35,354 nucleotides of DNA. It comes from Candidatus Bathyarchaeia archaeon (GTDB lineage: Archaea > Thermoproteota > Bathyarchaeia > 40CM-2-53-6 > JAVZFM01). Shown here piece by piece: positions 9,007 to 35,125 of this stretch (within the stretch, counting starts at the first letter, position 1; every line of letters starts with the position of its first letter). The stretch covers positions 1 to 35,354 of the forward strand of contig JAVZFM010000001.1 in assembly GCA_038872815.1 (NCBI GenBank), read 5' to 3'. Position numbers and translations under genes: made by a program. The notes beneath the pieces are model-generated. The model saw only the letters and a list, made by a program, of their open reading frames with translations. It had not been told where the DNA came from and searched no databases.

Positions 9007-9490
9007 TAGCTCTCACATAATTCCAAATTCTCATAATGCTTTTATTATAAAGAGTGAAGCTTTTTATGCCTTTGTCATAGAACTGATTTTAAAGAATTTT
9101 TGGATAACGCTAGAAGTATTGTATAAACCTTGCTTATAAAAAAGCACTAATTGATGAATAGCATGCTTTCGATATAGCTTTAACTAGGTGGAGAAAAATA
9201 AATTTTTTAAATTAAAAAGCATTTTAAGGATTTTATATAAGTTTTAGGGCCTATCAAATCCTTAATTAGGTTTAAATCTATCAACTAAGCTTTTGAATCC
9301 AAATCCATATAGCTAAAGGCTTGTAGAGCAAAAATGTAAATACGATACATCATGTAGAATAATGAGTTCTTTTGTAGCTCATCAAAATTAACTATGGGAA
9401 AACTCTAAATTAAACCTTAAGTTGGAGCTCCTCTCTGAGAACAAAATTTTTAAATAGCGCTTTAATCATATAACTTTTTAGGTGAAAAAC

Positions 9491-10516: not shown

Positions 10517-10529
10517 TAAACTTATAACC

Positions 10530-10540
10530 TTTTCTTTTTT
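10530..10540 (+). terminator. Oligo-T tract after the binding-protein gene (possible intra-operon attenuation site)
   Basis: TTTTCTTTTTT lies 14 nt after the TAG stop. Archaeal termination typically uses oligo-T. Position only, no experimental support. Confidence 0.3.
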
Positions 10541-10561
10541 ACTTAGAAGAGTAAATAGGCT

Positions 10562-11599: not shown

Positions 11600-11606
11600 A
11601 TGCGCA

Positions 11607-12554
11607 ATGTTAGAAATTATTTTTAATGAAAATTTCATAATAGGATTATTAGCTGCAGCTGTTCGATTCTCTACACCATTGATTTTACCAGCCTTTGGAG
11701 AAATTTTAGCTGAGCGCTCAGGAGTTTTAAATTTGGGCGTAGAAGGGATAATGCTTATGGGAGCATTTCTAGGTTTTATAGGGGCATATTTTACAGGTGA
11801 CTTATTCATAGGTATAGCCTTTAGCATAATCATTGGAGCTATTTTAGGTTTAATTCATGCGTTTGTATGTGTAACATTACGTGCAAACCAGATAGTTAGC
11901 GGTATGGCTATTTGGTTTTTAGGCTGGGGAATGTCAGGATTTCTTTATAGAATGATCTTCGGAATAAGGCCTCTTCCTGTAACAATCGAGGGATTTAAAA
12001 CTATCAATGTACCACTTCTTAGTGAAATTCCATTTATAGGGCAAATTTTATTTCAACAAAACCTTTTGGTATATATTTCCCTAATTCTCATTCCTATAAT
12101 GTACTTAGCCATTTTTAAGACTACATTTGGGCTAAAGATAAGAGCTACTGGAGAAAATCCAAGAACAGCAGATGTTGCAGGAGTGAATGTATATTTAATC
12201 AGGTATATTTGCGTAATTACAGGAGGTGCTTTAGCCGGATTAGGTGGAGGATATTTATCGCTTGCACATTTAAACATGTTTATAGATAACATGACTTTAG
12301 GAAGAGGATTTATAGCCATTGCGATAGTTTATTTTGGTAAATGGAATCCTTACAAGACGTTTATAGGTGCTCTTATATTTGGTGGTGTGGATGCTCTTCA
12401 ATCCCGTCTTCAAGCTATGAAATTAGGCATACCTTTTCAGTTTTTATTAATGCTCCCTTATGCTTTAACTATACTAGCTCTTTTGGGCTTAGCAAGAAAA
12501 GCTGAATCTCCAGCAGCATTAACAATTCCTTATCAAAGGGAAGAAAAAGAGTAA
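11607..12554 (+). CDS. BMP/sugar-type ABC transporter permease (second of two)
   Basis: 315 aa, polytopic, with an NLGVEG motif paralogous to the previous permease. Spacer of 7 nt. Confidence 0.8.
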   Translation: MLEIIFNENFIIGLLAAAVRFSTPLILPAFGEILAERSGVLNLGVEGIMLMGAFLGFIGAYFTGDLFIGIAFSIIIGAILGLIHAFVCVTLRANQIVSGMAIWFLGWGMSGFLYRMIFGIRPLPVTIEGFKTINVPLLSEIPFIGQILFQQNLLVYISLILIPIMYLAIFKTTFGLKIRATGENPRTADVAGVNVYLIRYICVITGGALAGLGGGYLSLAHLNMFIDNMTLGRGFIAIAIVYFGKWNPYKTFIGALIFGGVDALQSRLQAMKLGIPFQFLLMLPYALTILALLGLARKAESPAALTIPYQREEKE

Positions 12555-12566
12555 TTTTATCATTAT

Positions 12567-13061
12567 CTATAATGTTCTTTTTTCTAGTATATGGCTGATA
12601 TATTTAGAGCGCTTTTCTACTCCAGCCTTTTTCTTTAAAATTCCAAATTTATCGGCTCTTACATATTCAAGAGCATTAGTCGGGCAGAACTCAACACATT
12701 GAGGATCACCATTGCATAAATCACATTTTATTATCTTATTTGTTTTAATGTCTATAGAAATACCTCCAAATGGACATACAAGCATACATATTTTACATCC
12801 TATACATTTATTTTCGTTAATCATAATAGCGTTAGTTTTCTCATCTCTATAAATGGCTCCAGTTATGCAAGCTTCTTTACAAAGAGGGGTTTCACAATGT
12901 TGACATAACATTGGGATATCAAGCCCCTCCTCATATTTTAAAATAGAAATACGTGATCTTTTTATGTTAAAAACATTTGTATGATGTAAGGAACATACTA
13001 ATTCACAAATCCTACAGCCAGTACACTTTTCAGGATTAACAACCAACAACTTTAATATCAT
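12567..13061 (-). CDS. Four-cluster [4Fe-4S] polyferredoxin, probable electron-transfer partner of the adjacent AOR (AorA-like)
   Basis: 164 aa with four Cys motifs: CTGCRICELVC, CQHCETPLCKEAC, CIGCKICMLVCP, CDLCNGDPQCVEFCP. Lies 24 nt downstream of the AOR gene. Confidence 0.8.
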   Translation of the reverse strand: MILKLLVVNPEKCTGCRICELVCSLHHTNVFNIKRSRISILKYEEGLDIPMLCQHCETPLCKEACITGAIYRDEKTNAIMINENKCIGCKICMLVCPFGGISIDIKTNKIIKCDLCNGDPQCVEFCPTNALEYVRADKFGILKKKAGVEKRSKYISHILEKRTL

Positions 13062-13085
13062 GAAGTTTCACCTTAAATGATCTCA

Positions 13086-15014
13086 CTAATGCAGATAAAT
13101 AGAAGATTTTTCTAGTTTATCAATTGCATTCTCTAGCCCCAATTCAATAAGTTTATCTTTAGTAGGGATGCCAGTCTCAATATTCCATTCTCTTTCACTG
13201 TAATACTCATCCAACATTGGTTCTAGATTAACAACTTCACCTTTTAAAGGTCCATTTGGCAAAGGCTCTTTTAAAAATCTTTCAGGTAAATTATCATCCT
13301 TCCTTGAAAATCCTCTAATCACATTAAATACTCTTTCAAGATTAATTATTCTTTCTCCAATTTTTAAAAGATTACTTTCCTCAATTGTTATGCCAGTAAC
13401 AGCGTTAATAAGTTTCGCTAATGCTTTAGGAAATAAAAAACTATTTTCAAGTATTTTTTTACTTAATGGAGTTCGAGCGAAGTTATAAACACAAATCTCT
13501 AACGAATCAATGATTGCACGAATATTTTCATGCCATATTACTAGTCTTCCCTTTCCTTTTATACCCCTTAGATCTACAGCTTCTTTTGTACTAAACATTT
13601 CTTCAGCTAAACTTGGAGGAAAATGGAATTCGCCTATCGGAAATGCTCTTAAATGGTCCGCGCCCCTACTTGCAACAGCAAATCCTAAAGCCCAAGCTTT
13701 TGGCCCTCTAGGATCAACATTTATTATATCTACGCCCTTAATTACTGGGGCAATTTTTCTAGCTTCATTTCCTATTCTATTAGCCATTCTTTCTACTCCT
13801 TCAGCTAAAAAGTTTCCAAAATCCTCTCTTTTTGCAATTTTATGTATTAGAGATATTATTTGTTCATGGTTGCCCCACTCTAACTTGATGCCACCAGTAT
13901 CTTCAATACTTATTAATCCTTTTTCAAAACATTCAATAGCGAATGCTATTGTTGATGAAGTAGATATAGTGTCCAATCCATATTTATTACAAAGTTCATT
14001 TGCCATTAAAATAGAAGATAAGTCGCTATTTCCGCATCTAGATCCAAAGCCACAAATAGTTTCAAATTCAAGCCCCTCGCCTTCTATGCCTGCATAAGGA
14101 CCTTTTTCAACTCTATACCAATGACTACAATGCAAAGGACAACTAAAACATGCTTTAGAACGAACAGCATAATCAGAAATGAAAACATTACCACTTATTT
14201 TAGATGCCCCCTCAAAAGTTCCCCTTTGAAAGTTCTTAGTAGGTAATGCGCCCATATCTTGGTATAAATCTACAAGTGATGGGGATCCTTGAATAGAGAA
14301 AGCTTTATAATAACCTTCATCAAGTAAAAGAGCTTCATAATTTTTCTTTATAACTTCTATTAACGCTTTTGGATTTGCTACAGAAACATCTTTGGTTCCA
14401 CGTACAGCTATTGCCTTTAATTTTTTTGATCCCATAACAGCTCCTATTCCACATCTTGCAGCAGCTCTAGCCCTTTCATTCATAACACAGGCGTATCTAA
14501 CAAGATTTTCGCCTGCTTGTCCAATGTAAACCATGCCAATATCTTCGTCCCCAATTTCTTTTTTAATGATTGTATCTGTTTCCCATGTTGTTTTACCCCA
14601 TATATGATCTGCACTTTTTATCTCAACGCTTTCATCATCTATCCATAAGTAAACAGGCTTTCTCGCTGCTCCATAGATTACTATTGCATCATACCCAGCA
14701 AACTTAAGCATAGCGCCAAAAAAACCACCAGAATTTCCATCCCCTAGCATGTTTCCTAAAGGAGATAAAGCACTTACCGTATACCTATTTGAACCCGGAG
14801 CTAAAGTTCCATTAACTGGTCCAATACCAAACACTAATATATTTTCTGGACCTAAAGGATCTATTCTAAGTTTTAATTCATCGTATAAAATTTTAACGTT
14901 CAGTCCCCTCCCTCCAAGATAATTAAGAGCTAAATCTTTTTCGAGAGGAGTTTTCCATACTTTTTCCTCGGTTAAATTTACTCTTAAAATAGTTCCAGCC
15001 CATCCATACTTCAT
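13086..15014 (-). CDS. Aldehyde:ferredoxin oxidoreductase family tungstopterin enzyme (paralog 1)
   Basis: 642 aa. N-terminal YGWAGTILRVNLT, cluster motif CFSCPLHC, and GLDTIS and ASRGADHLR blocks typical of the AOR family. Confidence 0.9.
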   Translation of the reverse strand: MKYGWAGTILRVNLTEEKVWKTPLEKDLALNYLGGRGLNVKILYDELKLRIDPLGPENILVFGIGPVNGTLAPGSNRYTVSALSPLGNMLGDGNSGGFFGAMLKFAGYDAIVIYGAARKPVYLWIDDESVEIKSADHIWGKTTWETDTIIKKEIGDEDIGMVYIGQAGENLVRYACVMNERARAAARCGIGAVMGSKKLKAIAVRGTKDVSVANPKALIEVIKKNYEALLLDEGYYKAFSIQGSPSLVDLYQDMGALPTKNFQRGTFEGASKISGNVFISDYAVRSKACFSCPLHCSHWYRVEKGPYAGIEGEGLEFETICGFGSRCGNSDLSSILMANELCNKYGLDTISTSSTIAFAIECFEKGLISIEDTGGIKLEWGNHEQIISLIHKIAKREDFGNFLAEGVERMANRIGNEARKIAPVIKGVDIINVDPRGPKAWALGFAVASRGADHLRAFPIGEFHFPPSLAEEMFSTKEAVDLRGIKGKGRLVIWHENIRAIIDSLEICVYNFARTPLSKKILENSFLFPKALAKLINAVTGITIEESNLLKIGERIINLERVFNVIRGFSRKDDNLPERFLKEPLPNGPLKGEVVNLEPMLDEYYSEREWNIETGIPTKDKLIELGLENAIDKLEKSSIYLH

Positions 15015-15935
15015 AAATCAAACCCCATTATAAAATTCAAAAATAATTGCTAAACTAAATTAATAATGATGTACAGTTTTCATATAAATCTTTGTATATA
15101 CTTGTTTACCTTTAACTTAAGCCCATCGCTTTCATCATCATAGCTATGAACCTTAAATACTCAAGCTTTGATGAGCTTTCTAAAAGCGGCTTGTTCCTTA
15201 TTATGATGGAATATGTGAATACATTTCACATAGCTTTTCTTTCTCTTGAACCCATCTGTTATAGAACACTTCCATATGGCTACATGACCTCTCTTTATCC
15301 AAGCTATAAAAGATGCTCTTATTAGGCTGTTACAGCAGAAGCAAAAATATACACCATGAAGCATAAACCAAAGTGAGGCTCTCATATATATGACTATGTT
15401 TTTCATAGGAAAAAGGATATGCTCTTAAGGCAGAAATTTTTAGGAAATGAATAAAGCATTTTAAGGCTCCTCCAAGAATTTATTAGTGTTATTCCTTAAA
15501 AATAGAAAAAATGCCTAAAATCCTTAATTTGACATAAAAGGAGGAAAAGAGGAAATTTAAATTCCCATGAAAACCATGATTTTATCTCACGATATTCTTG
15601 TATGAGCGTAATTATCTTTACAGCGATTTTCAAAAAATTCTATGAATTGAGATTACTCCACTTAAAATTAAACACAGCTTTAGAAAATTTCCTTTAAACT
15701 TGCTTTTTAAAGGATCAAGGTATATAGTAGTTTTTTATAGTTTACGTTACATTACATGAGTAAACGTATGATTCGATATTTTTATTTCGTTAAAAAGAGC
15801 TATGATATCGAGTTCCTTTTAAACAAACCTTCAACCAAATCGTAGCCACTGTAATTTTAATTCAATGATATTAAAGATACAAAAGAGAAAGTGCCTAAAG
15901 GATTTCATGAAAGTTTCTTAGCTATAGTCCAATAG

Positions 15936-15960
15936 AATGAGTTTATTTAAACTCATTTTT
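15936..15960. terminator. Perfect 10-bp hairpin with flanking T/A runs just past the adenine deaminase stop
   Basis: AATGAGTTTA-TT-TAAACTCATT followed by TTT on the plus strand and preceded by AAAA on the minus-strand read. Lies 27-51 nt beyond the stop at 15987. It could terminate either strand. Confidence 0.35.
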
Positions 15961-15986
15961 AAAATTAAGTACTTATGTTAAAGAAC

Positions 15987-17753
15987 TCACTCTATTTTTA
16001 CATCAACTATTCGATGGCTTTTTACATCTATCAATCCTTTATCAGTTAGCCCCAGCTCAGGAACTGTAGGCAATGAAATGAATGAAAGTGTCATGAATGG
16101 AGATTTTAACTTACATCCAAGCATTTTTACAGAATTGTTTAAGCTTTCCAATCTTTCAATTACATCCTTAGCATTAAGCGTACTCATAAGACCTGCAATT
16201 GGTAGTTCTAATTTTTCTAAGACTTTTCCTTGTTTTACTACTATAAGCCCTCCATGCATATCAGCTATTGAATTAACTGCTACAGCCATATCAAGGTTGT
16301 TTGTTCCTACTACAACTATATTATGATGATCATGAGCTACTGAAGAGCCAATTGCTCCATCTTTTAGGTTAAAGCCTTTTACAAAAGCTAATGTAATTCT
16401 TCCAGTTCGCTTATGTCTTTCTACGCATGCTATTTTTAGTATATCGTTTTCTAAATCTACTTGTACTTCATTATTCTTTACGCTTAAATCTGCATAAGTT
16501 CCTTTATTTATTATTTGATCTTCTATAATTTGAATTACTCTAACACGTTGTTCTTGCTTTTTGCTTTTTAAAACAAAGTCTGAAGGCTTTAATCTTCTTC
16601 GAAGCTTTACTGTATTCATAGCCCATTTTGGCCATTTAAGCATAGGCAAATCTTTTAAAAATTTTCCATTTTTTGCAACTATTTCTCCATTTGCAATTAC
16701 TATTTCAGGCTTAAATTCTTTTAAATCTTTAACCAAAATTATATCCGCTATTCTTCCAGGAGCTATAATTCCTACCTTATCATCGATTCTAAAATGTTTA
16801 GCGCAATTTATAGTGGCTATTTGAATTGCTTTTATAGGATCAAGCCCAAGTTTTATTGCTTTTCTTACATTATAGTCTATATGTCCTTCTTGAATAATAT
16901 CGTTTGGATGTTTATCGTCAGTACAAAAGAATAAATTGCTAGAATCTATTCTATACTCAACAGCAACTTTTATAAGCTCTTCAAGGTTCCTTTCGCTAGA
17001 ACCTTCTCTTATCGCAATTCCCATACCTAGCCTTAACCTTTCTAAAGCTTCTTGCGCATTTACACATTCATGATCATCGCAAAGCCCAGCTGCAATGTAC
17101 GCATTTAATTCTTTTCCGCTTAATCCAGCAGCATGTCCAACTCTTATTTTATTAAGCTTTTTTGCAGCAATAACTTTTTTGAGGTGCTCATTTTTTGGAG
17201 GAATAACTTTAGATGGATCTAACTCGCCTAAAGCAATAGTATTTTCCCATTCAAGTATTTTCATGACTTCTTTTAAGCCCAAAGTTGCGCCAGTTGTTTC
17301 TAAACCAGGAGCTGTTGGCACTCTAGAAGATATTTGAACAAAAGTTTTAAGAGGAGTTTTCCAAGCTTCTTCAAGCAATAGCCTTATGCCTTTTAAGCCT
17401 AGTACGTTCGCTATTTCCATAGGATCTATGAGAACTGTTGTTGTTCCATGTGGCAAAATGATTTTAGCTAATTGACTTGGTGTAAGCAAAGTAGAATCTA
17501 AATGGATATGAGCATCTATTAAGCCTGGAACAGCATAATAACCATCACATTCTAAAGTTTCTTTACTGGAATATTCGATTTCACATATGCTAGCTATTCT
17601 TCCTGAAACTATGCTTATGTTCGTTTTAAAAATCTCTCTAGTAAAAACATCTACTAAATTACAATTTTTTAAAAGTAAGTCTGCAGGATATTTTCCTAAA
17701 GCAGTGTTTATAACTTTTTTAATTAAAGAGAATTCATTCATCATGAATTTCAT
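15987..17753 (-). CDS. ade: Adenine deaminase
   Basis: 588 aa, the typical length. Amidohydrolase HxH motif in LIDAHIHLDS, plus the C-terminal adenine-deaminase domain pattern (SVAHDHHNIVVVG ... GGLIVV). Confidence 0.85.
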   Translation of the reverse strand: MKFMMNEFSLIKKVINTALGKYPADLLLKNCNLVDVFTREIFKTNISIVSGRIASICEIEYSSKETLECDGYYAVPGLIDAHIHLDSTLLTPSQLAKIILPHGTTTVLIDPMEIANVLGLKGIRLLLEEAWKTPLKTFVQISSRVPTAPGLETTGATLGLKEVMKILEWENTIALGELDPSKVIPPKNEHLKKVIAAKKLNKIRVGHAAGLSGKELNAYIAAGLCDDHECVNAQEALERLRLGMGIAIREGSSERNLEELIKVAVEYRIDSSNLFFCTDDKHPNDIIQEGHIDYNVRKAIKLGLDPIKAIQIATINCAKHFRIDDKVGIIAPGRIADIILVKDLKEFKPEIVIANGEIVAKNGKFLKDLPMLKWPKWAMNTVKLRRRLKPSDFVLKSKKQEQRVRVIQIIEDQIINKGTYADLSVKNNEVQVDLENDILKIACVERHKRTGRITLAFVKGFNLKDGAIGSSVAHDHHNIVVVGTNNLDMAVAVNSIADMHGGLIVVKQGKVLEKLELPIAGLMSTLNAKDVIERLESLNNSVKMLGCKLKSPFMTLSFISLPTVPELGLTDKGLIDVKSHRIVDVKIE

Positions 17754-17944
17754 TTATTAAAAACTTTGCATTTATTAAACTTTTGATTGTATAGTAGCTT
17801 CGATTAAAGAGAATGATTAAAAAAGCTATTTAGCTATGGCAATTTAACTTCTCTTCTGTTATGAAAAATAGTTAAATAATGGTAAATGAGAAAATATTAT
17901 TGAATCAAGAAAATAGTTTATTGGGTTTTGGAGGTTTTTAATCG

Positions 17945-25294: not shown

Positions 25295-25630
25295 TTGGAG
25301 TTTAAAGAAAAAGAATTAATAAAAAATGGAGTAGCTTATCGTTTAAGCTTTTTAAAACTAGAAAATGCGATTATTGCATTTTTTTATGAAAATAGCATAA
25401 GGCTTGGAACATTAGCTATTGCTTTGCCTAAGATAGATGCGTTTAGCATGCCTAGATCGTCTGTTATTCTTGGAGGAAAGTTTTTAATGGCAAGTAGGAT
25501 ATTAGCTGAAAGAATAGCTCATTCATTCAATAAAATTGGAATAGTATCTATTTATTCAAGCTTACAAGAAAATGAAGCTTTCAAGATATTCATGAAATTG
25601 CTTGAAGATTTTTTAAAAAATTCTAAGTAA
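25295..25630 (+). CDS. Hypothetical small protein with PAC4 (proteasome assembly chaperone 4)-like sequence pattern
   Basis: 111 aa with a TTG start. The stretch AIIAFFYENSIRLGTLAIALPK...SSVILGGK...SRILAERIAHSFNKIGIVSIYSS resembles, from memory, human PSMG4 ...SLFLWVGATPHLRNLAVAMCS...STSLLGD...TGLAQRLARKTNKQVFVSYNL. Confidence 0.35.
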   Translation: MEFKEKELIKNGVAYRLSFLKLENAIIAFFYENSIRLGTLAIALPKIDAFSMPRSSVILGGKFLMASRILAERIAHSFNKIGIVSIYSSLQENEAFKIFMKLLEDFLKNSK

Positions 25631-25631
25631 A

Positions 25632-26915
25632 CTAATAAGAAATTTCTCTAACAGGTGGAGCTTTTCCAAGTACTCTCTCACTTGCTTTTAAAACAGCTTC
25701 ACGATATTCCTCTTTAGTGTATACACGGACTATATTCATAAAAACTTTCATTACATCGATTATTCTTGAGAGCTCAGCTAGCTTTAAAGGAATTTTTTCT
25801 CCAACCTTTGTTTTCTTAAAAATTGGAATTTCCATTGGTTCTATTTCTACTGCATAATGATAAGGAACAGAAGGTAAAGATGGAGCATCTATGTATACGT
25901 CATCTACACTAACTTTTGCCATAGAGGCTATTTCTTCTTCAATGCTTTTTCTAACACTTTCATTTATAAGAATGCTTGAAATCAATTCATCTTTAATGAA
26001 AAAAGTTTTTTCATAAGCACATTTTAAAAGTCTTCTCCTTTCAATATCGTTTATTATTTTTTTTGAACTTTGGCATTGATTTAGTATGGCCCAAACTACA
26101 TAATCGTTAAGTGAAAGATAATCTTCTGGAGTTTTAAAGCCTGTTAAGCCCAATTCATCTTTAGCCCCCTCTAAAGCTTTAAGGAGCATTATTTGTACAG
26201 CTCTTGAAGCTCTATGGAAATAAATGGTTCTAAAAGATTCAAGCCTTGCTAACAAAAAAGTTTCTAAAGTTGGTATAGCTGTTAAGTCTATGGCTAAATT
26301 ATCGTTAAGTATATCCATTGTATATATAATTCTAAAAATATCTATTTGCCCATAACCTGCTCCTGTATGGTATGAATCTCTTGAAACAAAATCCATTTTA
26401 TCAACATCGACTGAGCTTCTCATTATTTGATCAAGAAACTTCTTAGAAGGATCTTTAAGCTTTCCTATTGCAAGCTTCCCAATTCTTTCAGGATCAAAAC
26501 CTTCACTTTTTAAAACATCTGCTAACTCAGATTTTGTAATTATCCATAAAGTCATATCTTCATGGTTTTTATTTAAATACTTTATTAAAATTGGTTCAAA
26601 AAGATGAGAAAAAGGAGCGTGACCTACATCATGTAGCAATGAAGCTATTCTTATTTCATCTATTTCTTTTAAACTAAGCTTATTTTGTAAACTTTCAGTA
26701 AGTGTTTTTGCTAAAAACATCGTTCCAAGCGAATGCTCGAAGCGTGTATGGTTAGCTGCTGGATAGACGTACTCTGCTCCTGAAAGCTGACGTATTCTTC
26801 TTAATCTTTGAAATGGCCATGTATCTATAAGCTTTTTTTCAAAATCTGTTATACGTATATAGCCATAAAGTGGATCCTTTATAAAACCCCAATATAAGTT
26901 TGGTTTTGTACTCAT
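25632..26915 (-). CDS. HD-domain phosphohydrolase of the SAMHD1/COG1078 (dNTP triphosphohydrolase-like) family
   Basis: 427 aa. Motifs: RFEHSLGTMFLA, LLHDVGHAPFSH, VDVDKMDFVSRDSYHTG. Lies 14 nt downstream of the CBS gene on the same strand. Confidence 0.8.
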   Translation of the reverse strand: MSTKPNLYWGFIKDPLYGYIRITDFEKKLIDTWPFQRLRRIRQLSGAEYVYPAANHTRFEHSLGTMFLAKTLTESLQNKLSLKEIDEIRIASLLHDVGHAPFSHLFEPILIKYLNKNHEDMTLWIITKSELADVLKSEGFDPERIGKLAIGKLKDPSKKFLDQIMRSSVDVDKMDFVSRDSYHTGAGYGQIDIFRIIYTMDILNDNLAIDLTAIPTLETFLLARLESFRTIYFHRASRAVQIMLLKALEGAKDELGLTGFKTPEDYLSLNDYVVWAILNQCQSSKKIINDIERRRLLKCAYEKTFFIKDELISSILINESVRKSIEEEIASMAKVSVDDVYIDAPSLPSVPYHYAVEIEPMEIPIFKKTKVGEKIPLKLAELSRIIDVMKVFMNIVRVYTKEEYREAVLKASERVLGKAPPVREISY

Positions 26916-26929
26916 GAAAAATCTCCAAC

Positions 26930-28057
26930 TTAATATTCAAATTTTTTCTTTAAAATCCTTTTAGAACGTTTTTGAGAAACAATCTTTTTTATTTTGTCTA
27001 AAATAGAATCATAAATGCTTGAAAGCTCCCAGCCAAAATCTGAATAAGTAAACGTTTTTTTAGGAGTTTTTATGAATACATCTACTTCATATCTTTTTCT
27101 TCCTTTTTTTTCATTTTTTGGAGAAGTTTTTATGTTGGATTTTGCCTCAATGATTTTAAGAAAACTTTTTCTAAAAAATTTAATAATTCTTATAAACTTC
27201 ATTTTTGCTACTTCAGCTTCAAAAGGATCTTCTGGAAGCCCTATTATATAGATTGGCAATTCATTAGAATCGCTTACTTTTGGTAAAGTCTTCATATAAT
27301 CTCTATAAGTAATTATTCCTTGTAATTCTTCCCAAAGATTTATTAGGCAATAAGTTTTCTTTTTTTTAATCATCCTTTTGAGTATGCTTGAAATGCTTTC
27401 ATTCAGACTTTCCATTAATGGATTTTTATCCATAAACTCTTTGGCTGGAAAATCCATTATGCTTTTTATTTCTGGAATTATCGTTTCCTTTCCAAGTTTT
27501 TCAGGTTTAACCATTATAAAGACTATATCGCTTGATGTTAAAACTCCAAGGACTTTACCATTAAATGTTATCGGTAAATGATCTATTTTTTTATCGATCA
27601 TCATTCTTCTTGCTTTAGCAATGGAATCATTTTCTTTTAAAGTTATTGGATTCTTTGTCATTATACTACTTAGTTTTATTGTTTTTGGGATTTTATCTTC
27701 AATAGCTTTAAGTATGCTTAAAATCGTTATTTGGCCTATCAATTTATTGTTTTCTAATATTGGTAAAGCTTTAATCCTATAATCCATCATTATTTTAGCT
27801 GCTACATTAAGACTTGTAGTAGGTTGAAGCTTTGGAACAAAATTCATAATTGAAGAAACTTTTGTTTTTGAAATATCTTTAACGCTTAATAGATCTCTAA
27901 CAGTAACTATTCCTATTTTTCCAAGTTTTTCTACGAAAAGCTCGTAAGCATTTAATTCCTTAAGGATACTAATGGCCTTTGAAACAGGAGTAAGAGGATC
28001 AACTTTTATAGGAGTAGTTCTTAATTCATTCACACTTAAATCCATTATGCTTTCCAT
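26930..28057 (-). CDS. Four-CBS-domain (two Bateman modules) protein with a C-terminal HPF/RaiA (S30AE)-like domain
   Basis: 375 aa. Four repeats of the CBS pattern, each with a buried IG.IT..D/GV.T..D motif. The C-terminal 108 aa (26930-27256) fit a beta-alpha-beta-beta-beta-alpha pattern like HPF/YfiA. Confidence 0.6.
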   Translation of the reverse strand: MESIMDLSVNELRTTPIKVDPLTPVSKAISILKELNAYELFVEKLGKIGIVTVRDLLSVKDISKTKVSSIMNFVPKLQPTTSLNVAAKIMMDYRIKALPILENNKLIGQITILSILKAIEDKIPKTIKLSSIMTKNPITLKENDSIAKARRMMIDKKIDHLPITFNGKVLGVLTSSDIVFIMVKPEKLGKETIIPEIKSIMDFPAKEFMDKNPLMESLNESISSILKRMIKKKKTYCLINLWEELQGIITYRDYMKTLPKVSDSNELPIYIIGLPEDPFEAEVAKMKFIRIIKFFRKSFLKIIEAKSNIKTSPKNEKKGRKRYEVDVFIKTPKKTFTYSDFGWELSSIYDSILDKIKKIVSQKRSKRILKKKFEY

Positions 28058-28131
28058 AAATATCTTATTTTATGTAAACTCAAGTATAAAACTATTTATG
28101 GATGAATTAAAGGATTTGCTAAATCATATAA

Positions 28132-28518
28132 TTATGGAACAATTAATTTAACATACTCTATTTTTCTACTTGTTTGGAATAAATTGGCAAACTGTTTTAT
28201 TCTTTCAGCATCACCATCTAAAATAAAAATTTCAAGGCATTTATCTTCTTTTAAGTGGCTATGGATTTGTGTTTTAGTAATATCTTCAAATTCATGCTTT
28301 ATTTTTGTAACTATATCTTCTGCTTTTTGGCTATGGATTAACAAAAGGATTGGATTTAGCTTACCAACTAATTTTTCTCTTTCTTTATTATCTGCTATAA
28401 GCATCCTTGCTCCTGCTCTAATTACTTCTGACCTTCCAGAAAAACCAAGCTCTTTTTTTACTTCGTCTATTTCTTTAAGTATTTCCTCGTTCAAAGATAC
28501 ACTAATGATTTTTGCCAT
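28132..28518 (-). CDS. nikR: NikR-family ribbon-helix-helix metal-responsive transcriptional regulator
   Basis: 128 aa. The N-terminal RHH (IISVSLNEEILKEIDE...GFSGRSEVIRAGARMLI) is followed by an ACT-like domain with His/Cys ligand candidates (IHSQ..., HSHLKEDKCLEIFIL). Divergent from a metal ABC operon. Confidence 0.75.
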   Translation of the reverse strand: MAKIISVSLNEEILKEIDEVKKELGFSGRSEVIRAGARMLIADNKEREKLVGKLNPILLLIHSQKAEDIVTKIKHEFEDITKTQIHSHLKEDKCLEIFILDGDAERIKQFANLFQTSRKIEYVKLIVP

Positions 28519-28613
28519 GATTGTAGAATAATTATTAACTTATTTATAAATATTGCTATAAAAGTTATTAAGAAAAAATTTAAATATTAATAATCATCAT
28601 ATATTGAATAGAG
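28519..28613. promoter_or_regulatory. Divergent promoter/operator region between nikR-like gene and the metal ABC operon
   Basis: 95-bp, extremely A/T-rich spacer with several TATA-like elements and short palindromes (e.g. AATAATTATT). No specific operator can be assigned by eye. Confidence 0.4.
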
Positions 28614-29501
28614 GTGAAAAAAATAGTAAAAAAAATATTGCCCTTTTTTGTTGCAATTTTTGTCATTATTTGTTTAATTGATTTATGCTTTATTCTTCCA
28701 ATTCCGCAAACAGAAAGAATCGCCAACAAACAGGTAGGAGTAGTTGTGACCATACCCCCTCAGGCTGAATTTGTGGAAAGAATTGGCGGCAATAAAGTAA
28801 AAGTAACCATAATGGTCCCTCCAGGAGCAGACCCTCATACTTATGAGCCAACACCTTCTCAATTAAAAGAGGTTAGTATGGCAAAAATGTACGCTAAATT
28901 GGGTTCTGGAATTGAATTCGAGCTAGCATGGATGGACAAAATACTATCTATTAATAAAGAGATGTTAATTGTTGATTGTTCAAAAGGAATAGATCTTATA
29001 AAAGCAGAAGATGAGCTTTATGGAGTTGATCCACATATTTGGCTTTCTCCTAAAAACGTAAAGATAATGGTTGAAAACATATATCAAGGCCTAATTCAAA
29101 TTGGCCCTACTGACCAAGAATACTATAAAAGAAATAAAGAAAAATATTTACAAGAATTGAATGAATTAGATAATGAAATTGCTCAAATACTCTCTGGAAA
29201 AAAGATTAGAAAAATCTTGGTTTATCATCCAGCATGGGCATACTTTTGTAAAGATTATGGATTAGAGCAGATGTCAATTGAAAAGGAAGGTAAGGAACCA
29301 ACTCCACAAGAAATTGCTGATTTAATAAAACAAGCAAAAGAAAATAACATAACGGTAATTTTTGCATCACCAGAGTTTGATACAAAAGCAGCAGAGGTTA
29401 TAGCTAAAGAAATTAATGGGAAAGTTGTTTTGATAAGCCCTTTAGAAAAGAACTATTTAGAAAATATGCGAAAAATTGCTAAAACTTTTACAGAGGTTTA
29501 G
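28614..29501 (+). CDS. Cluster A-I metal (Zn/Mn/Fe; ZnuA/TroA/MntC-type) ABC substrate-binding protein
   Basis: 295 aa. GTG start, N-terminal TM anchor, and conserved metal-site contexts DPHTYEP and DPHIWLSP. Confidence 0.8.
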
Positions 29502-29503
29502 AT

Positions 29504-30277
29504 TTGAGTAAAGAAATCGTTAGTTTAAGGAATGTAGAAGTTTGCTTTGATGGAATGCCTATTCTTGAAAATATAAGCCTTTCTATAGAACAAAATGATT
29601 TCCTTGCTATTATAGGCCCAAATGGTGGTGGAAAGACTACATTACTAAAAGTTATCCTTGGACTAATTAATCCTAATAAAGGAGATGTAAAAGTTTTTGG
29701 AGAAGAGCCTCAAAAAGCAAGAAAATTAATTGGTTATGTGCCTCAATATACTTTCTTCGATAGAGATTTCCCGATAAGTGTTTTTGATGTAATTCTTATG
29801 GGCAGGTATGGAGGAGTATTTAAAAATTATTCTAAAGAAGATAAAGAAGCAACTTTTAATGCCCTAAAAACTGTAGACATGCTTGAATTCAAAGATAGAC
29901 AAATTGGAAAGCTATCAGGTGGACAGTTACAAAGAGTTTTTGTAGCAAGAGCAATTGTAAGAGAACCAAAATTGCTTTTGCTTGATGAACCTATGTCAAG
30001 TATAGATCCTGGAATGCAAAAATCATTCTATGAATTACTTTTAAAGCTTAAGGAAAAAATGGCAATAGTTTTAGTAACCCATGACATTAGCGTTATTTCT
30101 GCTTATGTTGAAAAAATTGCTTGTTTAAATCGTAAATTATTTTATCATGGATCAATAGAAGCAGGGTTAAAAAAGCTTGAAGAAGTTTATCAATGTCCAA
30201 TAGAATTAATAGCTCATGGAATCCCACATAGAGTGCTAGGAAGGCATGATAAAAATGATAGAGATACTTCAATATGA
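29504..30277 (+). CDS. Metal ABC transporter ATP-binding protein (ZnuC/TroB-type)
   Basis: 257 aa. TTG start 6 nt after GAGGT. Walker [10 protein letters not shown], signature LSGGQLQR, Walker B LLLLDEP. Confidence 0.9.
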
Positions 30278-31061
30278 ATTTATGAGAAATGCCTTAATTG
30301 CAGCTTTTTTAGTAAGTCTAACTTGTGGAATTGTAGGCACATACATAGTTATAAAGAGAATAGTGTTTATAAGCGGTGGAATTTCTCATGCTGCATTTGG
30401 TGGAATTGGTCTAGGATATTTGCTTAGAATAAATCCCATCCTTGCTGCTATTCCATTTAGTATATTGGTTGCACTTAGTATTGGAACTGTTAGTAAAAAA
30501 ACAAAAATTAGCGAAGATACGGCTATAGGGATATTATGGGCATTAGGTATGGCATTAGGAATTATTTTCATTACTATAAGTCCAGGTTATGCTCCCGATT
30601 TATTCAGCTATCTATTTGGATCAATTCTTACAGTATCTTTGTTTGATTTAATTATAATGCTTATCTTAAATATAATTATAATCTTTACAGTTATTCTATT
30701 CTATAAAGAGCTTTTAGCAATTTCATTTGATGAAGAGTTCTCAGAAGTTGTTGGAATTTCAACAAAAAGTTTTTATTTTATGCTTATATGTTTAGTTGCT
30801 TTAAGTGTTGTGATTTTAATAAGAGTTGTTGGTGCAATTCTTGTTATAGCATTACTGACAATCCCAGCAGCAATAAGCAAGCAATTTACCTATAACATTA
30901 AAAAATTAATGGTGCTTTCAACATTTATTGGAATTATTTTAACTGTAACTGGTTTATATCTATCTTATATATTTGATTTACCTTCTGGTGCAACTATTGT
31001 TTTAGTTTCAGGAGTAGGCCTTCTTTTTTCATCATTTTTAAAACATTTTATATCAATTTAA
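30246..31061 (+). CDS. Metal ABC transporter permease (ZnuB/TroC-type)
   Basis: 271 aa, polytopic. Overlaps the ATPase gene by 32 nt (or 23 nt if the start is the Met at 30255). Confidence 0.85.
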
Positions 31062-32658: not shown

Positions 32659-34857
32659 TTAAAGCTCATAAAGCTTATCAATAGGCTTGCTTGAATAAAA
32701 TACTATTCCTTTATCTTCTATTGAAAATTCTATCCATTTTTCAATAAATCTTTCTCCTCTTATTTTTTTAATTCTAAGTATTCTTTTCATTTTCCCCCTT
32801 TCTTCTAGAAGAAGTGTTTCTATTACGCAATCAGATGTTTCCTCTATTTTAGTGATTGCTTCTTTATCAAGGCTAGTGCCTAAAGTATAATAAAACCTTC
32901 CATAGTTTCCTTTTATTTTAGCTCCTACTGAATGAATAAATGAAAGTATTTGCTCAAGCTTTAAAGCTGAAAGCATAGGAGTAAAAGAATCTAAGAAAAC
33001 ATCAACTTCTCCTTTTGATTCATTCAAACAACTTGATATCTTAATTCCAAGAGTTGTTAAATCACTTAATGAGCTAACGTAATATTTTTCGCTAGAGGGT
33101 TTTCCAGCTATGCTAGAGTAAGAATCTATAAAAATAAGTTTATTACTTTCATAGAATTCTTTTACATCCATTCCTAACTTTTTCATACTTTCTATTATTT
33201 TAAATGGAAACTCAACATTAGTTATAAAAACACAAGTATTTCCATTTTTTAACCCATCATAAAGCAATGTTTGTAATAAAACAGTTTTTCCTGAACCTGA
33301 GTTTCCGATTATGGCTATAGAACTAGCTTTTGGAATGTCTCCACCCATTAAGGCTTTTATGAATTCATAAGAATGCCTATAAACTTTTCTTTTCTTTTTT
33401 GTAATGAAAGCAAAAATTGTTAATGCTAAGATAAATATTAAAACGTATCCATAATGTTCTTCAAACTTTGCTTGAAGCTTTACTTGTTTAAGCTCAGAGT
33501 TGTTTATACTAACATCATTTATAAAGCTTAATATAAAATATGACCCAACAAGCTTATAATCTCCAATTGGGATTTGTTTAAACTTCACTATACCTCTTAA
33601 ATCAGTTAAACCACTTGCTATAACTTTATCGTCTTTCATAAGCTCAACATTTATTCCTGGAAATAAAAGCCCATAAATGCTTAATTGAAAGCTTGGATTA
33701 TAAACAGGTAACATTACTTCAACTTGCATATCACTCATAACAGAAATATCGTTCATTATTGTTGAGTTCCATTCTTTCCAATTAACTGTTATATCATAGT
33801 TTCCATAGATTTCACTAGAAGGCAAAAATGCATTAATGAATCCAGTTTGATTAGATTTTCCAAGCCATACAATGTTTGAATTTTTCAAGATTGTAATCTC
33901 TACATTGGATATAGGTTCTTTAAAATCATCGATAAGCTTTATTAAAAACTTGTAGAAAGGGGCTATCCAAAACTTTAAATATCCTTCATACTTATTTTTT
34001 GAAAGATCTTGGGTTTCAGTTTTTATTTCATAAGTTCCTTTAGGTAAAAAAATCTCGTATGTATAAATTCCACTATATTGCTTAGAAGCTTGAATATCCA
34101 TTCTCATGCTATTCTCATATATGAGTTCTTGGGTCTCAGCGTTTAAAATTTTAATTTTTGGTAATGTTATATCGCTTATACCAAAAGGATCAGAGACATT
34201 CAATAGAACTTTTATAGGTATAGAGCTTTCTTTTATTTGAAAAATTGATAAGGCTTTACCATCTATGCTTAAAGTTTGTAAATTCATGCTTACATGGTCT
34301 ACACATGGAATACTAACTTGAGTTGGAGTTTTTAAACTATTCCAATACAATCGAATAGGAATTAAAGGATTTGATGGAATGAATTGAATTGAAAGCTGTA
34401 TACGTGAGCCTTTTAAGAAAGTATGATTGGCAACTCCTATTCCAAGGTTATAGTCTTTGATACTAGGGCTAAGAAAAATAAAAGCATTCATTGAAGGCAC
34501 AACCTCTCTAGTTTTATTCGTAGAAGTTAACTCATACAATGAAATTTTTAAAGTACCATTGACCATTCTATCAGCGCTAAGCCATATTCTATAGAATATG
34601 CTTCCATAAACTTTAAGCTGAAAGCCTAAAGGTGGATCTAGTGTGAATATACTTTCAACTCTAGCATCAGTTTCTTTAACGTTTTCGACTATAAGGCTTA
34701 GGCTTAATGTTTTCCCATCGAAAATTTCTTTTTGGCTTGATCTAGCATAAAGCTTCACATACTTAATTATTGGCAAAGTAAGAATAGGAATTAAAGCATC
34801 ATTGATAGCCATGATAAACATTAATAGTATTAACAAGCAAACTCTTAGCTTATGCAT
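32659..34857 (-). CDS. Bitopic membrane protein: signal/anchor, ~470-aa beta-rich glycosylatable extracellular region, TM helix, cytoplasmic KaiC/RecA-superfamily ATPase domain
   Basis: The ORF track gives 760 aa from 34941. I prefer the Met at 34857 (MHKLRVCLLILLMFIMAI...), which yields a signal-like N-terminus. There are many N-x-S/T sequons. A second TM (YGYVLIFILALTIFAFIT) is followed by KKKRK. The C-terminal domain has Walker A (GNSGSGKT), Walker B-like (LIFIDSY) and a KaiC-like context (MGGDIPKASSIAIIG). Confidence 0.7.
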   Translation of the reverse strand: MHKLRVCLLILLMFIMAINDALIPILTLPIIKYVKLYARSSQKEIFDGKTLSLSLIVENVKETDARVESIFTLDPPLGFQLKVYGSIFYRIWLSADRMVNGTLKISLYELTSTNKTREVVPSMNAFIFLSPSIKDYNLGIGVANHTFLKGSRIQLSIQFIPSNPLIPIRLYWNSLKTPTQVSIPCVDHVSMNLQTLSIDGKALSIFQIKESSIPIKVLLNVSDPFGISDITLPKIKILNAETQELIYENSMRMDIQASKQYSGIYTYEIFLPKGTYEIKTETQDLSKNKYEGYLKFWIAPFYKFLIKLIDDFKEPISNVEITILKNSNIVWLGKSNQTGFINAFLPSSEIYGNYDITVNWKEWNSTIMNDISVMSDMQVEVMLPVYNPSFQLSIYGLLFPGINVELMKDDKVIASGLTDLRGIVKFKQIPIGDYKLVGSYFILSFINDVSINNSELKQVKLQAKFEEHYGYVLIFILALTIFAFITKKKRKVYRHSYEFIKALMGGDIPKASSIAIIGNSGSGKTVLLQTLLYDGLKNGNTCVFITNVEFPFKIIESMKKLGMDVKEFYESNKLIFIDSYSSIAGKPSSEKYYVSSLSDLTTLGIKISSCLNESKGEVDVFLDSFTPMLSALKLEQILSFIHSVGAKIKGNYGRFYYTLGTSLDKEAITKIEETSDCVIETLLLEERGKMKRILRIKKIRGERFIEKWIEFSIEDKGIVFYSSKPIDKLYEL

Positions 34858-35125
34858 ATACTTTCGCTCACTTATTATAATTTTATTGGTATTTTTTAAG
34901 CTTTTACACTTAATCCAAGCCAACTTATATTTCTTGATCATTCATAAATCGTAGAAAGTCTTAAATATGAAGACCATAAAATATTTTCTTGATATGCTTT
35001 AAAGAATAAGTTTAAAATTAAAATAAAAACAAGTTACAAACGCTATAAGCCATGAAAAATTTTGAAGCATAAATTAAAAACTTTTATTACTAGAGGGTTT
35101 ATAAATAAAAAACGAGTTGAGTGAT

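What the first reader, a model, noticed from the sequence alone, without database searches (positions are those of the whole stretch)
26930..28057. Four-CBS protein fused to an HPF/RaiA-like domain, co-transcribed with a SAMHD1-type HD hydrolase
Seen: the N-terminal ~265 aa contain four CBS repeats. The C-terminal 108 aa (26930-27256) read as follows:

PIYIIGLPEDPFEAEVAKMKFIRIIKFFRKSFLKIIEAKSNIKTSPKNEKKGRKRYEVDVFIKTPKKTFTYSDFGWELSSIYDSILDKIKKIVSQKRSKR...

This maps onto the beta-alpha-beta-beta-beta-alpha pattern of bacterial HPF/YfiA. From memory of E. coli HPF: lNItG...eiT.alr.fv..Kf.KLe.yf....v.V.l.......a...l.v.g.el.a.a...DmY.AID.lidKL.rQl.K.k.K. The HD gene starts 14 nt downstream.

Established: S30AE/HPF domains silence ribosomes by occupying the 30S decoding region. 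CBS pairs sense adenine nucleotides. Canonical HPF homologs are generally regarded as absent or rare in archaea.

Inference: this is an energy-charge-sensing ribosome hibernation or translation-control factor with a domain architecture I do not know to be characterised. It may be functionally tied to nucleotide-pool control by the HD triphosphohydrolase.
Basis: inference. Interest (0 to 1): 0.65.

Follow-up and report, generated by a model that had tools for sequence, protein, structure and literature searches.

The report
Archaeal HibA-type ribosome hibernation factor

Summary
The ORF at 26930-28057 (-) encodes 375 aa with four CBS motifs and a 110-aa C-terminal domain. A SAMHD1-type HD gene starts 14 nt downstream.

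The C-terminal domain is HPF/RaiA-like. [quoted passage not shown] Ten of 49 divergent relatives hit Pfam PF02482.

The whole protein aligns end to end with the cryo-EM-characterised Pyrococcus abyssi HibA (chain 9sr9_H, profile E = 1.9e-34). This architecture was published in 2025-2026 as HibA (Nat Commun 2026) and AHA (bioRxiv 2026). Those proteins bind AMP, plug the 30S decoding site and the 50S peptidyl-transferase centre, and preserve 70S ribosomes in stationary phase. The window protein is therefore an uncharacterised member of a known family.

The HD linkage is real but narrow. It recurs in two close relatives (70% and 78% identity) and in none of 81 other loci. A functional tie to dNTP control remains speculative. 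Comparisons restricted to the C-terminal domain are only marginal against HibA (P about 1e-3), so structure and collinearity carry the assignment. Interest is low.

The parts
26930..28057 (-). hibA/AHA-type gene, 375 aa: CBS module plus HPF/RaiA-like domain. The start codon at 28057 (MES...) agrees with the N-termini of homologs.
   Evidence: ORF; 263 full-length homologs, mostly Bathyarchaeia; alignment A1; profile versus P. abyssi HibA chain 9sr9_H, E = 1.9e-34, one stretch 7-366 / 4-376; BLASTP of P. abyssi HibA versus the window protein, 13-358 / 14-348, E = 4.9e-15.
27263..28057 (-). CBS module (residues 1-265): four CBS motifs forming two Bateman pairs. G-h-h-T-x-x-D ribose-binding signatures lie at residues 49-55, 171-177 and 247-253; CBS2 has Ser114 in place of the Asp.
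   Evidence: Pfam PF00571, four stretches; AF2 full-length model, pLDDT 85.7; Foldseek matches to SriD, MJ1225, SSO3205-AMP, AMPK-gamma and Dri, E 1e-19 to 1e-13; motif positions and family conservation.
27452..27514 (-). Extended loop after CBS3 (about residues 182-202). It aligns with the 'PTC loop' (P. abyssi HibA residues 190-207) / 'loop 3' of AHA, which inserts into the peptidyl-transferase centre.
   Evidence: Coil with low pLDDT in the AF2 model (residues 186-193 below 50); aligned to P. abyssi residues 190-207 in the HMMER alignment; loop length is 20-23 residues in 55 of 56 family members; role of the loop taken from PMC13324472 and PMC12934967.
26933..27262 (-). [quoted passage not shown]
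   Evidence: AF2 model, pLDDT 84.1, pTM 0.71; Foldseek PDB top 33 hits all HPF/RaiA/YfiA/pY/RafH/MPY, best E = 8.5e-6, E. coli HPF 2rql 3.5e-5; PF02482 in 10 of 49 divergent relatives, best 8.3e-7; charge.
26916..26929 (-). 14-nt spacer between the hibA stop codon and the HD start codon, with an SD-like GGAG (26923-26926). There is no room for a separate intergenic promoter, so co-transcription is likely.
   Evidence: Sequence read directly. Equivalent gaps of 1 nt (L082) and 15 nt (L083) in close relatives. Co-transcription itself is inferred, not shown.
25632..26915 (-). SAMHD1/EF1143-type HD-domain phosphohydrolase gene (427 aa), a putative dNTP triphosphohydrolase.
   Evidence: PF01966 + PF19276; PDB homologs 2hek 6e-53, 2o6i 6e-36, SAMHD1 about 1e-29 over residues 11-411; weak partial PADLOC dGTPase hit, 6.9e-9.
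25295..25630 (+). Convergent 111-aa ORF with no recognisable family. It travels with the HD gene in the two close relatives.
   Evidence: No Pfam or PADLOC hit; conserved next to HD in L082 (73% identity) and L083 (81% identity).
28058..28131 (-). 74-nt AT-rich intergenic region upstream of hibA. It is a possible location for hibA's own promoter, but none was demonstrated.
   Evidence: Sequence. The RNA contig ends at 28031, inside the ORF, so the 5' end is not defined.

Best explanation
The gene encodes a Bathyarchaeial ortholog of the HibA/AHA family of archaeal ribosome hibernation factors.

Mechanism, by homology to P. abyssi HibA and Haloferax volcanii AHA:
- The basic C-terminal HPF/RaiA-like domain lodges in the mRNA/tRNA channel of the small subunit at the decoding centre.
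- The N-terminal four-CBS disc docks on the large subunit. Its long CBS3 loop reaches into the peptidyl-transferase centre.
- One polypeptide therefore blocks the A, P and E sites and clamps the two subunits into an inactive, nuclease-protected 70S.
- The CBS module binds adenine nucleotides, AMP most tightly, and probably links occupancy to energy state.

What is shown here: the domain architecture, the HPF fold of the C-terminal domain, collinear homology to the characterised protein, conservation of the loop and of nucleotide-binding signatures, and a transcript fragment.

What is inferred from the published relatives: ribosome binding, AMP binding and the physiological role.

In this lineage the gene is very probably co-transcribed with a SAMHD1-type HD hydrolase. 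I regard that as a local operon arrangement, not a family property.
For: - Four CBS motifs.
- AF2 model of the C-terminal domain with HPF topology, pLDDT 84.
- The top 33 Foldseek PDB hits are all HPF/RaiA-type hibernation factors, E 8.5e-6 to 5e-3, TM 0.5-0.67, while the next folds have TM below 0.3.
- The family profile aligns in one stretch over 360 positions with HibA chain 9sr9_H, E = 1.9e-34. BLASTP of P. abyssi HibA against the window protein is collinear into the C-terminal domain, E = 4.9e-15. The domain boundary is at residue 266, against 270 in HibA.
- The C-terminal-domain profile retrieves 173 representative clusters, including about 110-140-aa standalone proteins as the HibA paper describes. 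Ten of 49 divergent members hit PF02482, best E = 8.3e-7.
- JGI already names one homolog 'ribosome-associated translation inhibitor RaiA'.
- A loop equivalent to the PTC loop is conserved in length, the TxxD signatures are present, and the C-terminal domain has net charge +14.
- Published function: cryo-EM, in vitro translation inhibition, knockout phenotypes and AMP Kd of 12 uM, and AHA.
- Transcript contig inside the gene.
Against: - The window's own C-terminal domain does not reach PF02482.
- A profile of the C-terminal domain alone finds neither HibA nor bacterial HPF among PDB sequences.
- hhalign restricted to the C-terminal domain, against P. abyssi or Thermococcales HibA, is always in register but only marginal (E = 0.09; P = 0.004 to 0.0008).
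- Homology of this domain to HibA therefore rests on structure, collinearity and transitive links.
- The Foldseek PDB copy predates the HibA entries, so no direct structural superposition on HibA was possible.
- No ribosome-binding or nucleotide-binding data exist for this protein.
- The published HibA work saw no clear effect of AMP or ATP on ribosome binding, so the 'energy-charge switch' step is unproven even in the model systems.
Confidence: 0.86

Rival explanations
1. A dormancy operon. In this hot-spring Bathyarchaeial lineage HibA and the SAMHD1-type HD enzyme form a functional unit. Co-expression on energy stress would silence ribosomes and deplete dNTPs together, or the CBS module would regulate the HD enzyme directly.
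For: 14-nt gap with an SD-like GGAG. The same order hibA-HD-orf111 occurs in two relatives, with gaps of 1 and 15 nt. The HibA paper notes pull-down links between HibA and DNA replication/recombination proteins in Thermococcales. The window also carries nucleoside and nucleobase salvage or catabolism genes.
Against: The adjacency is absent from all 80 species-representative loci and from the 69%-identical relative, which has ATPase genes there instead. Three closely related genomes amount to essentially one evolutionary event. No RNA spans the junction. No paper reports such a linkage.
Confidence: 0.1
2. The protein belongs to one of the other CBS-module ribosome factors (Sri/ARC/Dri-type, CM-1 to CM-6), and its C-terminal domain only converges on an HPF-like fold without being homologous to HibA's.
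For: C-terminal-domain comparisons with HibA are marginal. For the CBS module alone, the best structures in the available Foldseek library are SriD and MJ1225. The profile scores SriA/B-type chains only slightly below HibA (109 versus 122 bits).
Against: By sequence the best PDB match is HibA, and it is the only one aligned through the C-terminal domain. Sri chains are 270-340 aa and matched only over the CBS part. Dri is a double CBS module of 655 aa. Relatives of this C-terminal domain hit PF02482. The HibA entries are missing from the Foldseek copy, which explains why Sri ranks top there.
Confidence: 0.04
3. The protein is not ribosome-associated. It is a CBS-regulated nucleic-acid- or protein-binding regulator whose small alpha/beta C-terminal domain has another target.
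For: No direct biochemical data for this protein. Small alpha/beta folds recur in many contexts.
Against: Thirty-three consecutive top structural matches are ribosome hibernation factors and nothing else scores comparably. The protein shows end-to-end homology to a protein visualised on ribosomes, a strongly basic C-terminal domain and a conserved PTC-type loop.
Confidence: 0.03

Closest known systems
HibA (Pyrococcus abyssi PAB0961 / Thermococcus barophilus TERMP_00697; PDB 9sr9 series; Madru et al., Nat Commun 2026, PMC13324472)
   Same: Same two-domain architecture and near-identical domain boundary: CBS module 1-269 plus HPF/RaiA-like 270-392, against 1-265 plus 266-375 here. Collinear full-length homology. 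Long loop after CBS3. [quoted passage not shown]
   Different: Only about 24% identity. The C-terminal domain is very divergent (domain-only P about 1e-3). The window protein is 17 aa shorter. Different phylum (Thermoproteota/Bathyarchaeia versus Thermococcales). It sits in an operon-like pair with an HD hydrolase, which is not reported for HibA.
AHA (Haloferax volcanii HVO_2384; Souza et al., bioRxiv 2026, PMC12934967)
   Same: The same family under another name: a CBS tetrad related to AMPK-gamma plus a C-terminal HPF domain; loop 3 inserted in the PTC; two AMP bound; terminal helix longer than in E. coli HPF, as in the model here (H80-108).
   Different: No direct sequence comparison was made here because the HVO_2384 sequence was not retrieved. 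AHA comes from a haloarchaeon with an acidic proteome.
Bacterial HPF / RaiA (YfiA) / plastid pY (Pfam PF02482, Ribosomal_S30AE)
   Same: Fold and topology of the C-terminal domain (Foldseek E 8.5e-6 to 5e-3). The published archaeal homologs occupy the same 30S site.
   Different: The window domain does not reach the Pfam model. It has a longer beta2-beta3 loop and a longer C-terminal helix. It is fused to an N-terminal CBS module, whereas the bacterial proteins are standalone or carry the long-HPF dimerisation domain.
Sri (SriA-D, Methanosarcina acetivorans, PMC13454478), ARC-P/ARC-A (Methanolobus, 10.64898/2026.01.19.700304) and Dri (Pyrobaculum calidifontis, PDB 9e6q/9e7f)
   Same: Four-CBS modules that bind archaeal ribosomes and are linked to energy limitation. 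They are structurally the closest CBS modules available in the Foldseek library.
   Different: In the matches here they aligned only over the CBS module, never the C-terminal domain. They act as separate tandem proteins encoded in operons (Sri, ARC) or as a double CBS module (Dri). The HibA paper reports that these families largely exclude HibA phyletically.

Membership tests
HibA/AHA archaeal hibernation factors | N-terminal module of four tandem CBS motifs (two Bateman pairs) | tested here: met
   PF00571 in four stretches, E = 4.1e-37; AF2 model; Foldseek to CBS-tetrad structures, E down to 1.7e-19.
HibA/AHA archaeal hibernation factors | [quoted passage not shown] | tested here: met
   AF2 topology, pLDDT 84.1; top 33 Foldseek PDB hits all HPF/RaiA-type; PF02482 in 10 of 49 relatives.
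HibA/AHA archaeal hibernation factors | Full-length collinear sequence homology to an experimentally characterised member | tested here: met
   Profile A1 versus 9sr9_H, E = 1.9e-34, single stretch 7-366 / 4-376; BLASTP E = 4.9e-15, 13-358 / 14-348; P0267 confirmed as P. abyssi HibA.
HibA/AHA archaeal hibernation factors | Sequence homology of the C-terminal domain alone to the HibA C-terminal domain | tested here: inconclusive
   hmmsearch of the domain profile versus PDB gave no hit. hhalign gave E = 0.09, P = 0.002-0.004 and P = 0.0008-0.0013 against a Thermococcales profile of Neff 1.6. All alignments were in register.
HibA/AHA archaeal hibernation factors | Extended loop in or after CBS3 (PTC loop / loop 3) | tested here: met
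   Residues about 182-202 are coil with low pLDDT. They align to P. abyssi residues 190-207. Length is conserved at 20-23 residues across the family.
HibA/AHA archaeal hibernation factors | Adenine-nucleotide (AMP > ADP > ATP) binding by the CBS module | not testable with these tools
   Only indirect evidence: GxxTxxD signatures at residues 49-55, 171-177 and 247-253; T250 is invariant and D253 nearly invariant.
HibA/AHA archaeal hibernation factors | Binding to 70S at the decoding centre and PTC; inhibition of translation; protection of 70S in stationary phase | not testable with these tools
   Known only for P. abyssi / T. barophilus HibA and H. volcanii AHA.
Bacterial HPF/RaiA (Pfam PF02482 Ribosomal_S30AE) | Match to the PF02482 model | tested here: not met
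   No hit for the window protein or its C-terminal domain at E <= 1 or E <= 10. Relatives hit weakly: 3 of 33 (best 0.0017) and 10 of 49 (best 8.3e-7).
Bacterial HPF/RaiA (Pfam PF02482 Ribosomal_S30AE) | HPF fold | tested here: met
   Foldseek: 8fmw_W 8.5e-6, E. coli HPF 2rql 3.5e-5, V. cholerae HPF 4hei 4.3e-5, YfiA 4v8i 3e-3.
Sri / ARC standalone CBS-module hibernation factors | Standalone CBS module without an HPF domain, encoded in a cluster of several CBS-module genes | tested here: not met
   The protein carries the HPF-like domain. The flanking genes scanned (HD, NikR-like, orf111, orf139) carry no CBS domain.
SAMHD1/EF1143-type HD dNTP triphosphohydrolases (the neighbouring gene) | HD domain plus HD-associated region, homologous to SAMHD1 across the catalytic core | tested here: met
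   PF01966 + PF19276; SAMHD1 E about 1e-29 over 11-411, EF1143 6e-36. Catalytic activity and substrate are not testable here.

The most novel reading that the evidence does not exclude
In a small hot-spring Bathyarchaeial lineage, hibA has been joined in one transcription unit with a SAMHD1-type dNTP triphosphohydrolase and a conserved convergent 111-aa ORF. Entry into dormancy would then shut down translation and drain dNTP pools (replication arrest or an antiviral state) in a coordinated way, possibly with the AMP-sensing CBS module acting on both.
Probability: 0.1. Interest if true: 0.45.

Novelty: already known. Interest (0 to 1): 0.2.

Why it matters
The finding independently rediscovers, from raw sequence, a family that three groups established by cryo-EM in 2025-2026: the archaeal branch of the HPF hibernation module fused to an AMPK-gamma-like energy sensor. 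For annotation, this gene and its roughly 260 'CBS domain-containing protein' homologs in Bathyarchaeia and Nitrososphaeria should be labelled HibA/AHA-type ribosome hibernation factors. That label is relevant to how slow-growing sediment and hot-spring archaea survive energy limitation. The only element not covered in the papers I read is gene context. One context is a lineage-restricted hibA-HD dNTPase pair. Another Bathyarchaeial sub-lineage places hibA directly upstream of the A-type ATP synthase operon. Both are modest leads, not discoveries.

Tried and rejected
1. phmmer of the 108-aa C-terminus against PDB sequences gave only a chance hit to arginine decarboxylase, E = 0.74.
2. hmmsearch with a 33-sequence C-terminal-domain profile against PDB sequences gave only noise (levivirus coat and similar), with no HibA or HPF.
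3. Pfam on the window's C-terminal domain found nothing.
4. Foldseek of the full-length model could not test HibA directly because the PDB copy ends 2026-04-08 and lacks 9sr9 and 9l96. The top hits were CBS-only proteins.
5. hhalign of the C-terminal domain against P. abyssi HibA or a Thermococcales profile was in register but marginal. A database search seeded with P. abyssi HibA returned only Thermococcales at >=78% identity among those listed, so the profile stayed shallow.
6. A search for per-genome HibA calls in Bathyarchaeia in the HibA paper's source data found only the genome list.
7. The identity of PDB 9l96 (406-aa CBS protein, second-best sequence hit, aligned only over the CBS part) could not be traced in the literature library.
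8. Co-transcription evidence was not obtained. One metatranscriptome holds a single 359-nt contig inside hibA and nothing over the junction.
9. The defence-system reading was rejected. PADLOC gives no hit for HibA, orf111 or orf139, and only a weak partial dGTPase hit for HD. The NCBIfam DS11 CBS anti-phage model scores 25.6 bits against a cutoff of 260.
10. The NCBIfam CBS-containing families (PrdR, IMPDH, SpxR, CcpN and others) all score far below their cutoffs and match the CBS part only.
11. No tRNA genes were found in the window.
Full report
**Observation.** The window carries an ORF at 26930..28057 on the minus strand. Pfam finds four CBS stretches (PF00571, E = 4.1e-37) in the N-terminal ~265 residues. 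It finds no family for the last 108 residues scanned alone.

The next gene on the same strand, 25632..26915, encodes 427 aa with an HD domain and the HD_assoc_2 region. It is homologous to human SAMHD1 across residues 11-411 (E about 1e-29), to EF1143 (2o6i, 6e-36) and to 2hek (6e-53). The spacer is exactly 14 nt. On the coding strand it reads gttGGAGatttttc, with an SD-like GGAG 7 nt before the HD start codon. All factual parts of the finding are confirmed.

**Source organism.** Homologs are numerous (263 at E <= 1e-3) and full length (about 370-390 aa). Where named, they come mostly from Bathyarchaeia/Thermoproteota MAGs. One is already labelled 'ribosome-associated translation inhibitor RaiA' by JGI. 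The stretch is held almost completely (93% of sampled words) by a hot-springs metagenome run. The window is AT-rich at about 31% GC. It is a Bathyarchaeial genome fragment.

**The C-terminal domain.** In a 56-sequence alignment the last ~105 residues are the best-conserved part of the protein (GLPxDPFEAE..K.KF..EA..IK..RRYEV..GW.L..D..K).

Sequence-only tests of this domain were weak:
- phmmer and a 33-sequence profile found neither HPF nor HibA among PDB sequences.
- Only 3 of 33 close relatives touched PF02482, best E = 0.0017.

Structure was decisive:
- Its 33 best Foldseek matches in the PDB are, without exception, ribosome hibernation factors of the HPF/RaiA/YfiA/pY/RafH/MPY type. The best is 8fmw_W at E = 8.5e-6; E. 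coli HPF 2rql scores 3.5e-5; TM-scores are 0.5-0.67. The first unrelated folds have TM below 0.3.

An exhaustive profile search with the domain found 173 representative clusters. These comprise both ~370-410-aa CBS fusions and ~110-140-aa standalone proteins. Among 49 divergent members, 10 match PF02482 with best E = 8.3e-7. This gives a transitive sequence link to the bacterial family.

**Relation to what is known.** The best PDB sequence match of the whole protein is chain H of 9sr9, a 392-aa 'Dehydrogenase'. A database search confirmed this chain is the Pyrococcus abyssi protein (P0267).
- The family profile aligns with it in a single stretch, profile positions 7-366 against chain residues 4-376, E = 1.9e-34.
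- BLASTP of the P. abyssi protein against the window's protein is collinear from residue 13 to 358, well into the C-terminal domain, E = 4.9e-15.

The literature library shows this protein is HibA, described in a 2025 preprint and in Nat Commun 2026 (PMC13324472). It has a CBS module (residues 1-269) fused to an HPF/RaiA-like domain (270-392) and was seen by cryo-EM on P. abyssi 70S ribosomes.
- Its C-terminal domain sits in the 30S mRNA/tRNA channel, as bacterial HPF does.
- The CBS module takes three positions on the 50S. In one of these a long loop (residues 190-207) enters the peptidyl-transferase centre.
- HibA inhibits translation in vitro, and this requires the C-terminal domain.
- A T. 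barophilus knockout has about 60% fewer 70S ribosomes in stationary phase and a longer lag phase.
- The CBS module binds AMP (Kd 12 uM) more tightly than ADP, and ADP more tightly than ATP.

An independent preprint describes the same family as AHA in Haloferax volcanii. It reports two bound AMP molecules, a knockout phenotype, and homologs in 17 archaeal phyla. HibA is reported in 47% of archaeal genomes and standalone HPF/RaiA-like proteins in 8%. The architecture is no longer uncharacterised, and the premise that HPF is rare in archaea is outdated.

**Membership.** The window protein meets the architectural definition of HibA/AHA:
- four CBS motifs;
- an HPF-fold C-terminal domain;
- a domain boundary at residue 266, against 270 in HibA;
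- collinear homology to the characterised protein.

It also has a 20-23-residue loop after CBS3, conserved in length across the family. This loop aligns with the HibA PTC loop and is modelled as a low-confidence coil. The G-h-h-T-x-x-D ribose-binding signature is present in CBS1, CBS3 and CBS4, and it is family-conserved in CBS1 and CBS4. The C-terminal domain has net charge +14 with a Lys/Arg tail.

The weak point is direct sequence homology restricted to the C-terminal domain. hhalign gives E = 0.09 with the narrow profile. It gives P = 0.002-0.004 with a broader one. Against a shallow Thermococcales profile (Neff 1.6) it gives P = 0.0008-0.0013. All three alignments are in register. Both papers remark that this small domain evolves fast.

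The available Foldseek PDB copy ends on 8 April 2026 and lacks the HibA entries. A direct structural superposition could therefore not be done. In that copy the CBS module matches SriD, MJ1225, SSO3205, AMPK-gamma and Dri best. I put the HibA/AHA assignment at about 0.86.

**The HD neighbour.** The pair is very likely one transcription unit, given the 14-nt gap and the SD-like motif, although no RNA evidence spans the junction. The only transcript evidence is a 359-nt metatranscriptome contig inside hibA, at 27673-28031.

Comparative data limit the significance of the pairing:
- tblastn with the HD protein found no HD homolog within 6 kb of the hibA homolog in any of 80 species-representative genome loci from Bathyarchaeia, Nitrososphaerales, Hecatellales and Methanomethylicia.
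- The two closest relatives (78% and 70% identity) do show hibA-HD with gaps of 15 and 1 nt, followed by the same convergent 111-aa ORF.
- The 69%-identical relative instead has an 85-aa ORF and A/V-ATPase subunits C and K at that position.
- In the three genomes that have the pair, HD is 87-92% identical while HibA is 70-78% identical.

The linkage is thus confined to a narrow lineage and amounts to about one evolutionary event. In the text searches of the HibA, AHA and ARC papers, none discusses an operon, synteny or an HD gene next to these factors. PADLOC gives only a weak, partial dGTPase hit for HD and nothing for the other genes. A functional coupling of hibernation to dNTP depletion remains possible but speculative; I put it at about 0.1.

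**Other context.** Upstream on the same strand is a NikR-like regulator (RHH plus NikR_C). It is divergent from a ZnuA/ABC/ABC-3 metal transporter, which is its more plausible target. In 15 loci of one Bathyarchaeial sub-lineage, hibA lies in a conserved block HypA / PhoU-like / ADP-forming acyl-CoA synthetase-like / hibA / A-type ATPase subunit I. The window retains only a C-terminal fragment of the synthetase-like gene at 24179-24490.

**Verdict.** The gene is an uncharacterised Bathyarchaeial member of the HibA/AHA family. The HD linkage is real but lineage-restricted, and no functional evidence supports it. Interest is low (0.2).

Noticed in passing
L004, L009, L012, L013, L016, L019, L028, L034, L039, L043, L046, L052, L059, L064, L071 (for example L043:6001-9176): In one Bathyarchaeial sub-lineage the hibA homolog lies directly upstream, on the same strand, of A/V-type ATPase subunit I (PF01496). 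It sits within a conserved block HypA / PhoU-like / ADP-forming acyl-CoA synthetase-like / hibA / atpI. L081 (69% relative) has ATPase subunits AC39 and proteolipid downstream. An AMP-sensing hibernation factor next to the ATP synthase operon is suggestive, and term searches of the three papers found no discussion of gene context.
   Followed up: partly
window 24071-24505 (+): This 144-aa ORF matches only the C-terminal ~105 residues (36% identity) of the ~500-aa acyl-CoA synthetase-like protein that precedes hibA in other Bathyarchaeia. It is either a gene remnant or a split subunit, and it hints at a rearrangement near the hibA-HD locus.
   Followed up: partly
window 6781-23110: Cluster suggestive of nucleoside/nucleobase uptake and breakdown: Bmp/PnrA-type ABC binding protein and two permeases (9482-12554), adenine deaminase (15987-17753), dihydropyrimidine-dehydrogenase-like pieces (6781-9006, 17945-19132), an amidohydrolase (21360-22709), two aldehyde:ferredoxin oxidoreductases (13086-15014, 19428-21350) and ferredoxins.
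   Followed up: partly
window 28132-31061: A NikR-like regulator (RHH plus NikR_C) is transcribed divergently from a ZnuA / ABC ATPase / ABC-3 permease metal transporter. In three Nitrosopumilales-type loci (L053, L055, L057) a NikR-like gene lies convergent, just downstream of the hibA homolog.
   Followed up: partly
window 25295-25630 (+) and 24589-25008 (-): Two small ORFs (111 and 139 aa) have no Pfam or PADLOC family. The 111-aa ORF is conserved (73-81% identity) convergent to the HD gene in L082 and L083, so it is probably a real gene of unknown function.
   Followed up: partly
window 28045-28057: The database copy of this protein (P0001, 371 aa) starts at the second ATG (residue 5). Homologs begin MES.., which supports the upstream ATG at 28057 as the true start.
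   Followed up: partly
window 32659-34941 (-): A 760-aa protein with a C-terminal KaiC-type ATPase domain (PF06745) and DUF7504. The N-terminal ~500 residues have no family assignment.
   Followed up: no
PDB 9l96 chain a (not in the window): A 406-aa 'CBS domain-containing protein' present in four PDB entries is the second-best sequence match (E = 5e-32 with the profile), but it aligns only over the CBS part. Its source and paper could not be identified in the library.
   Followed up: partly
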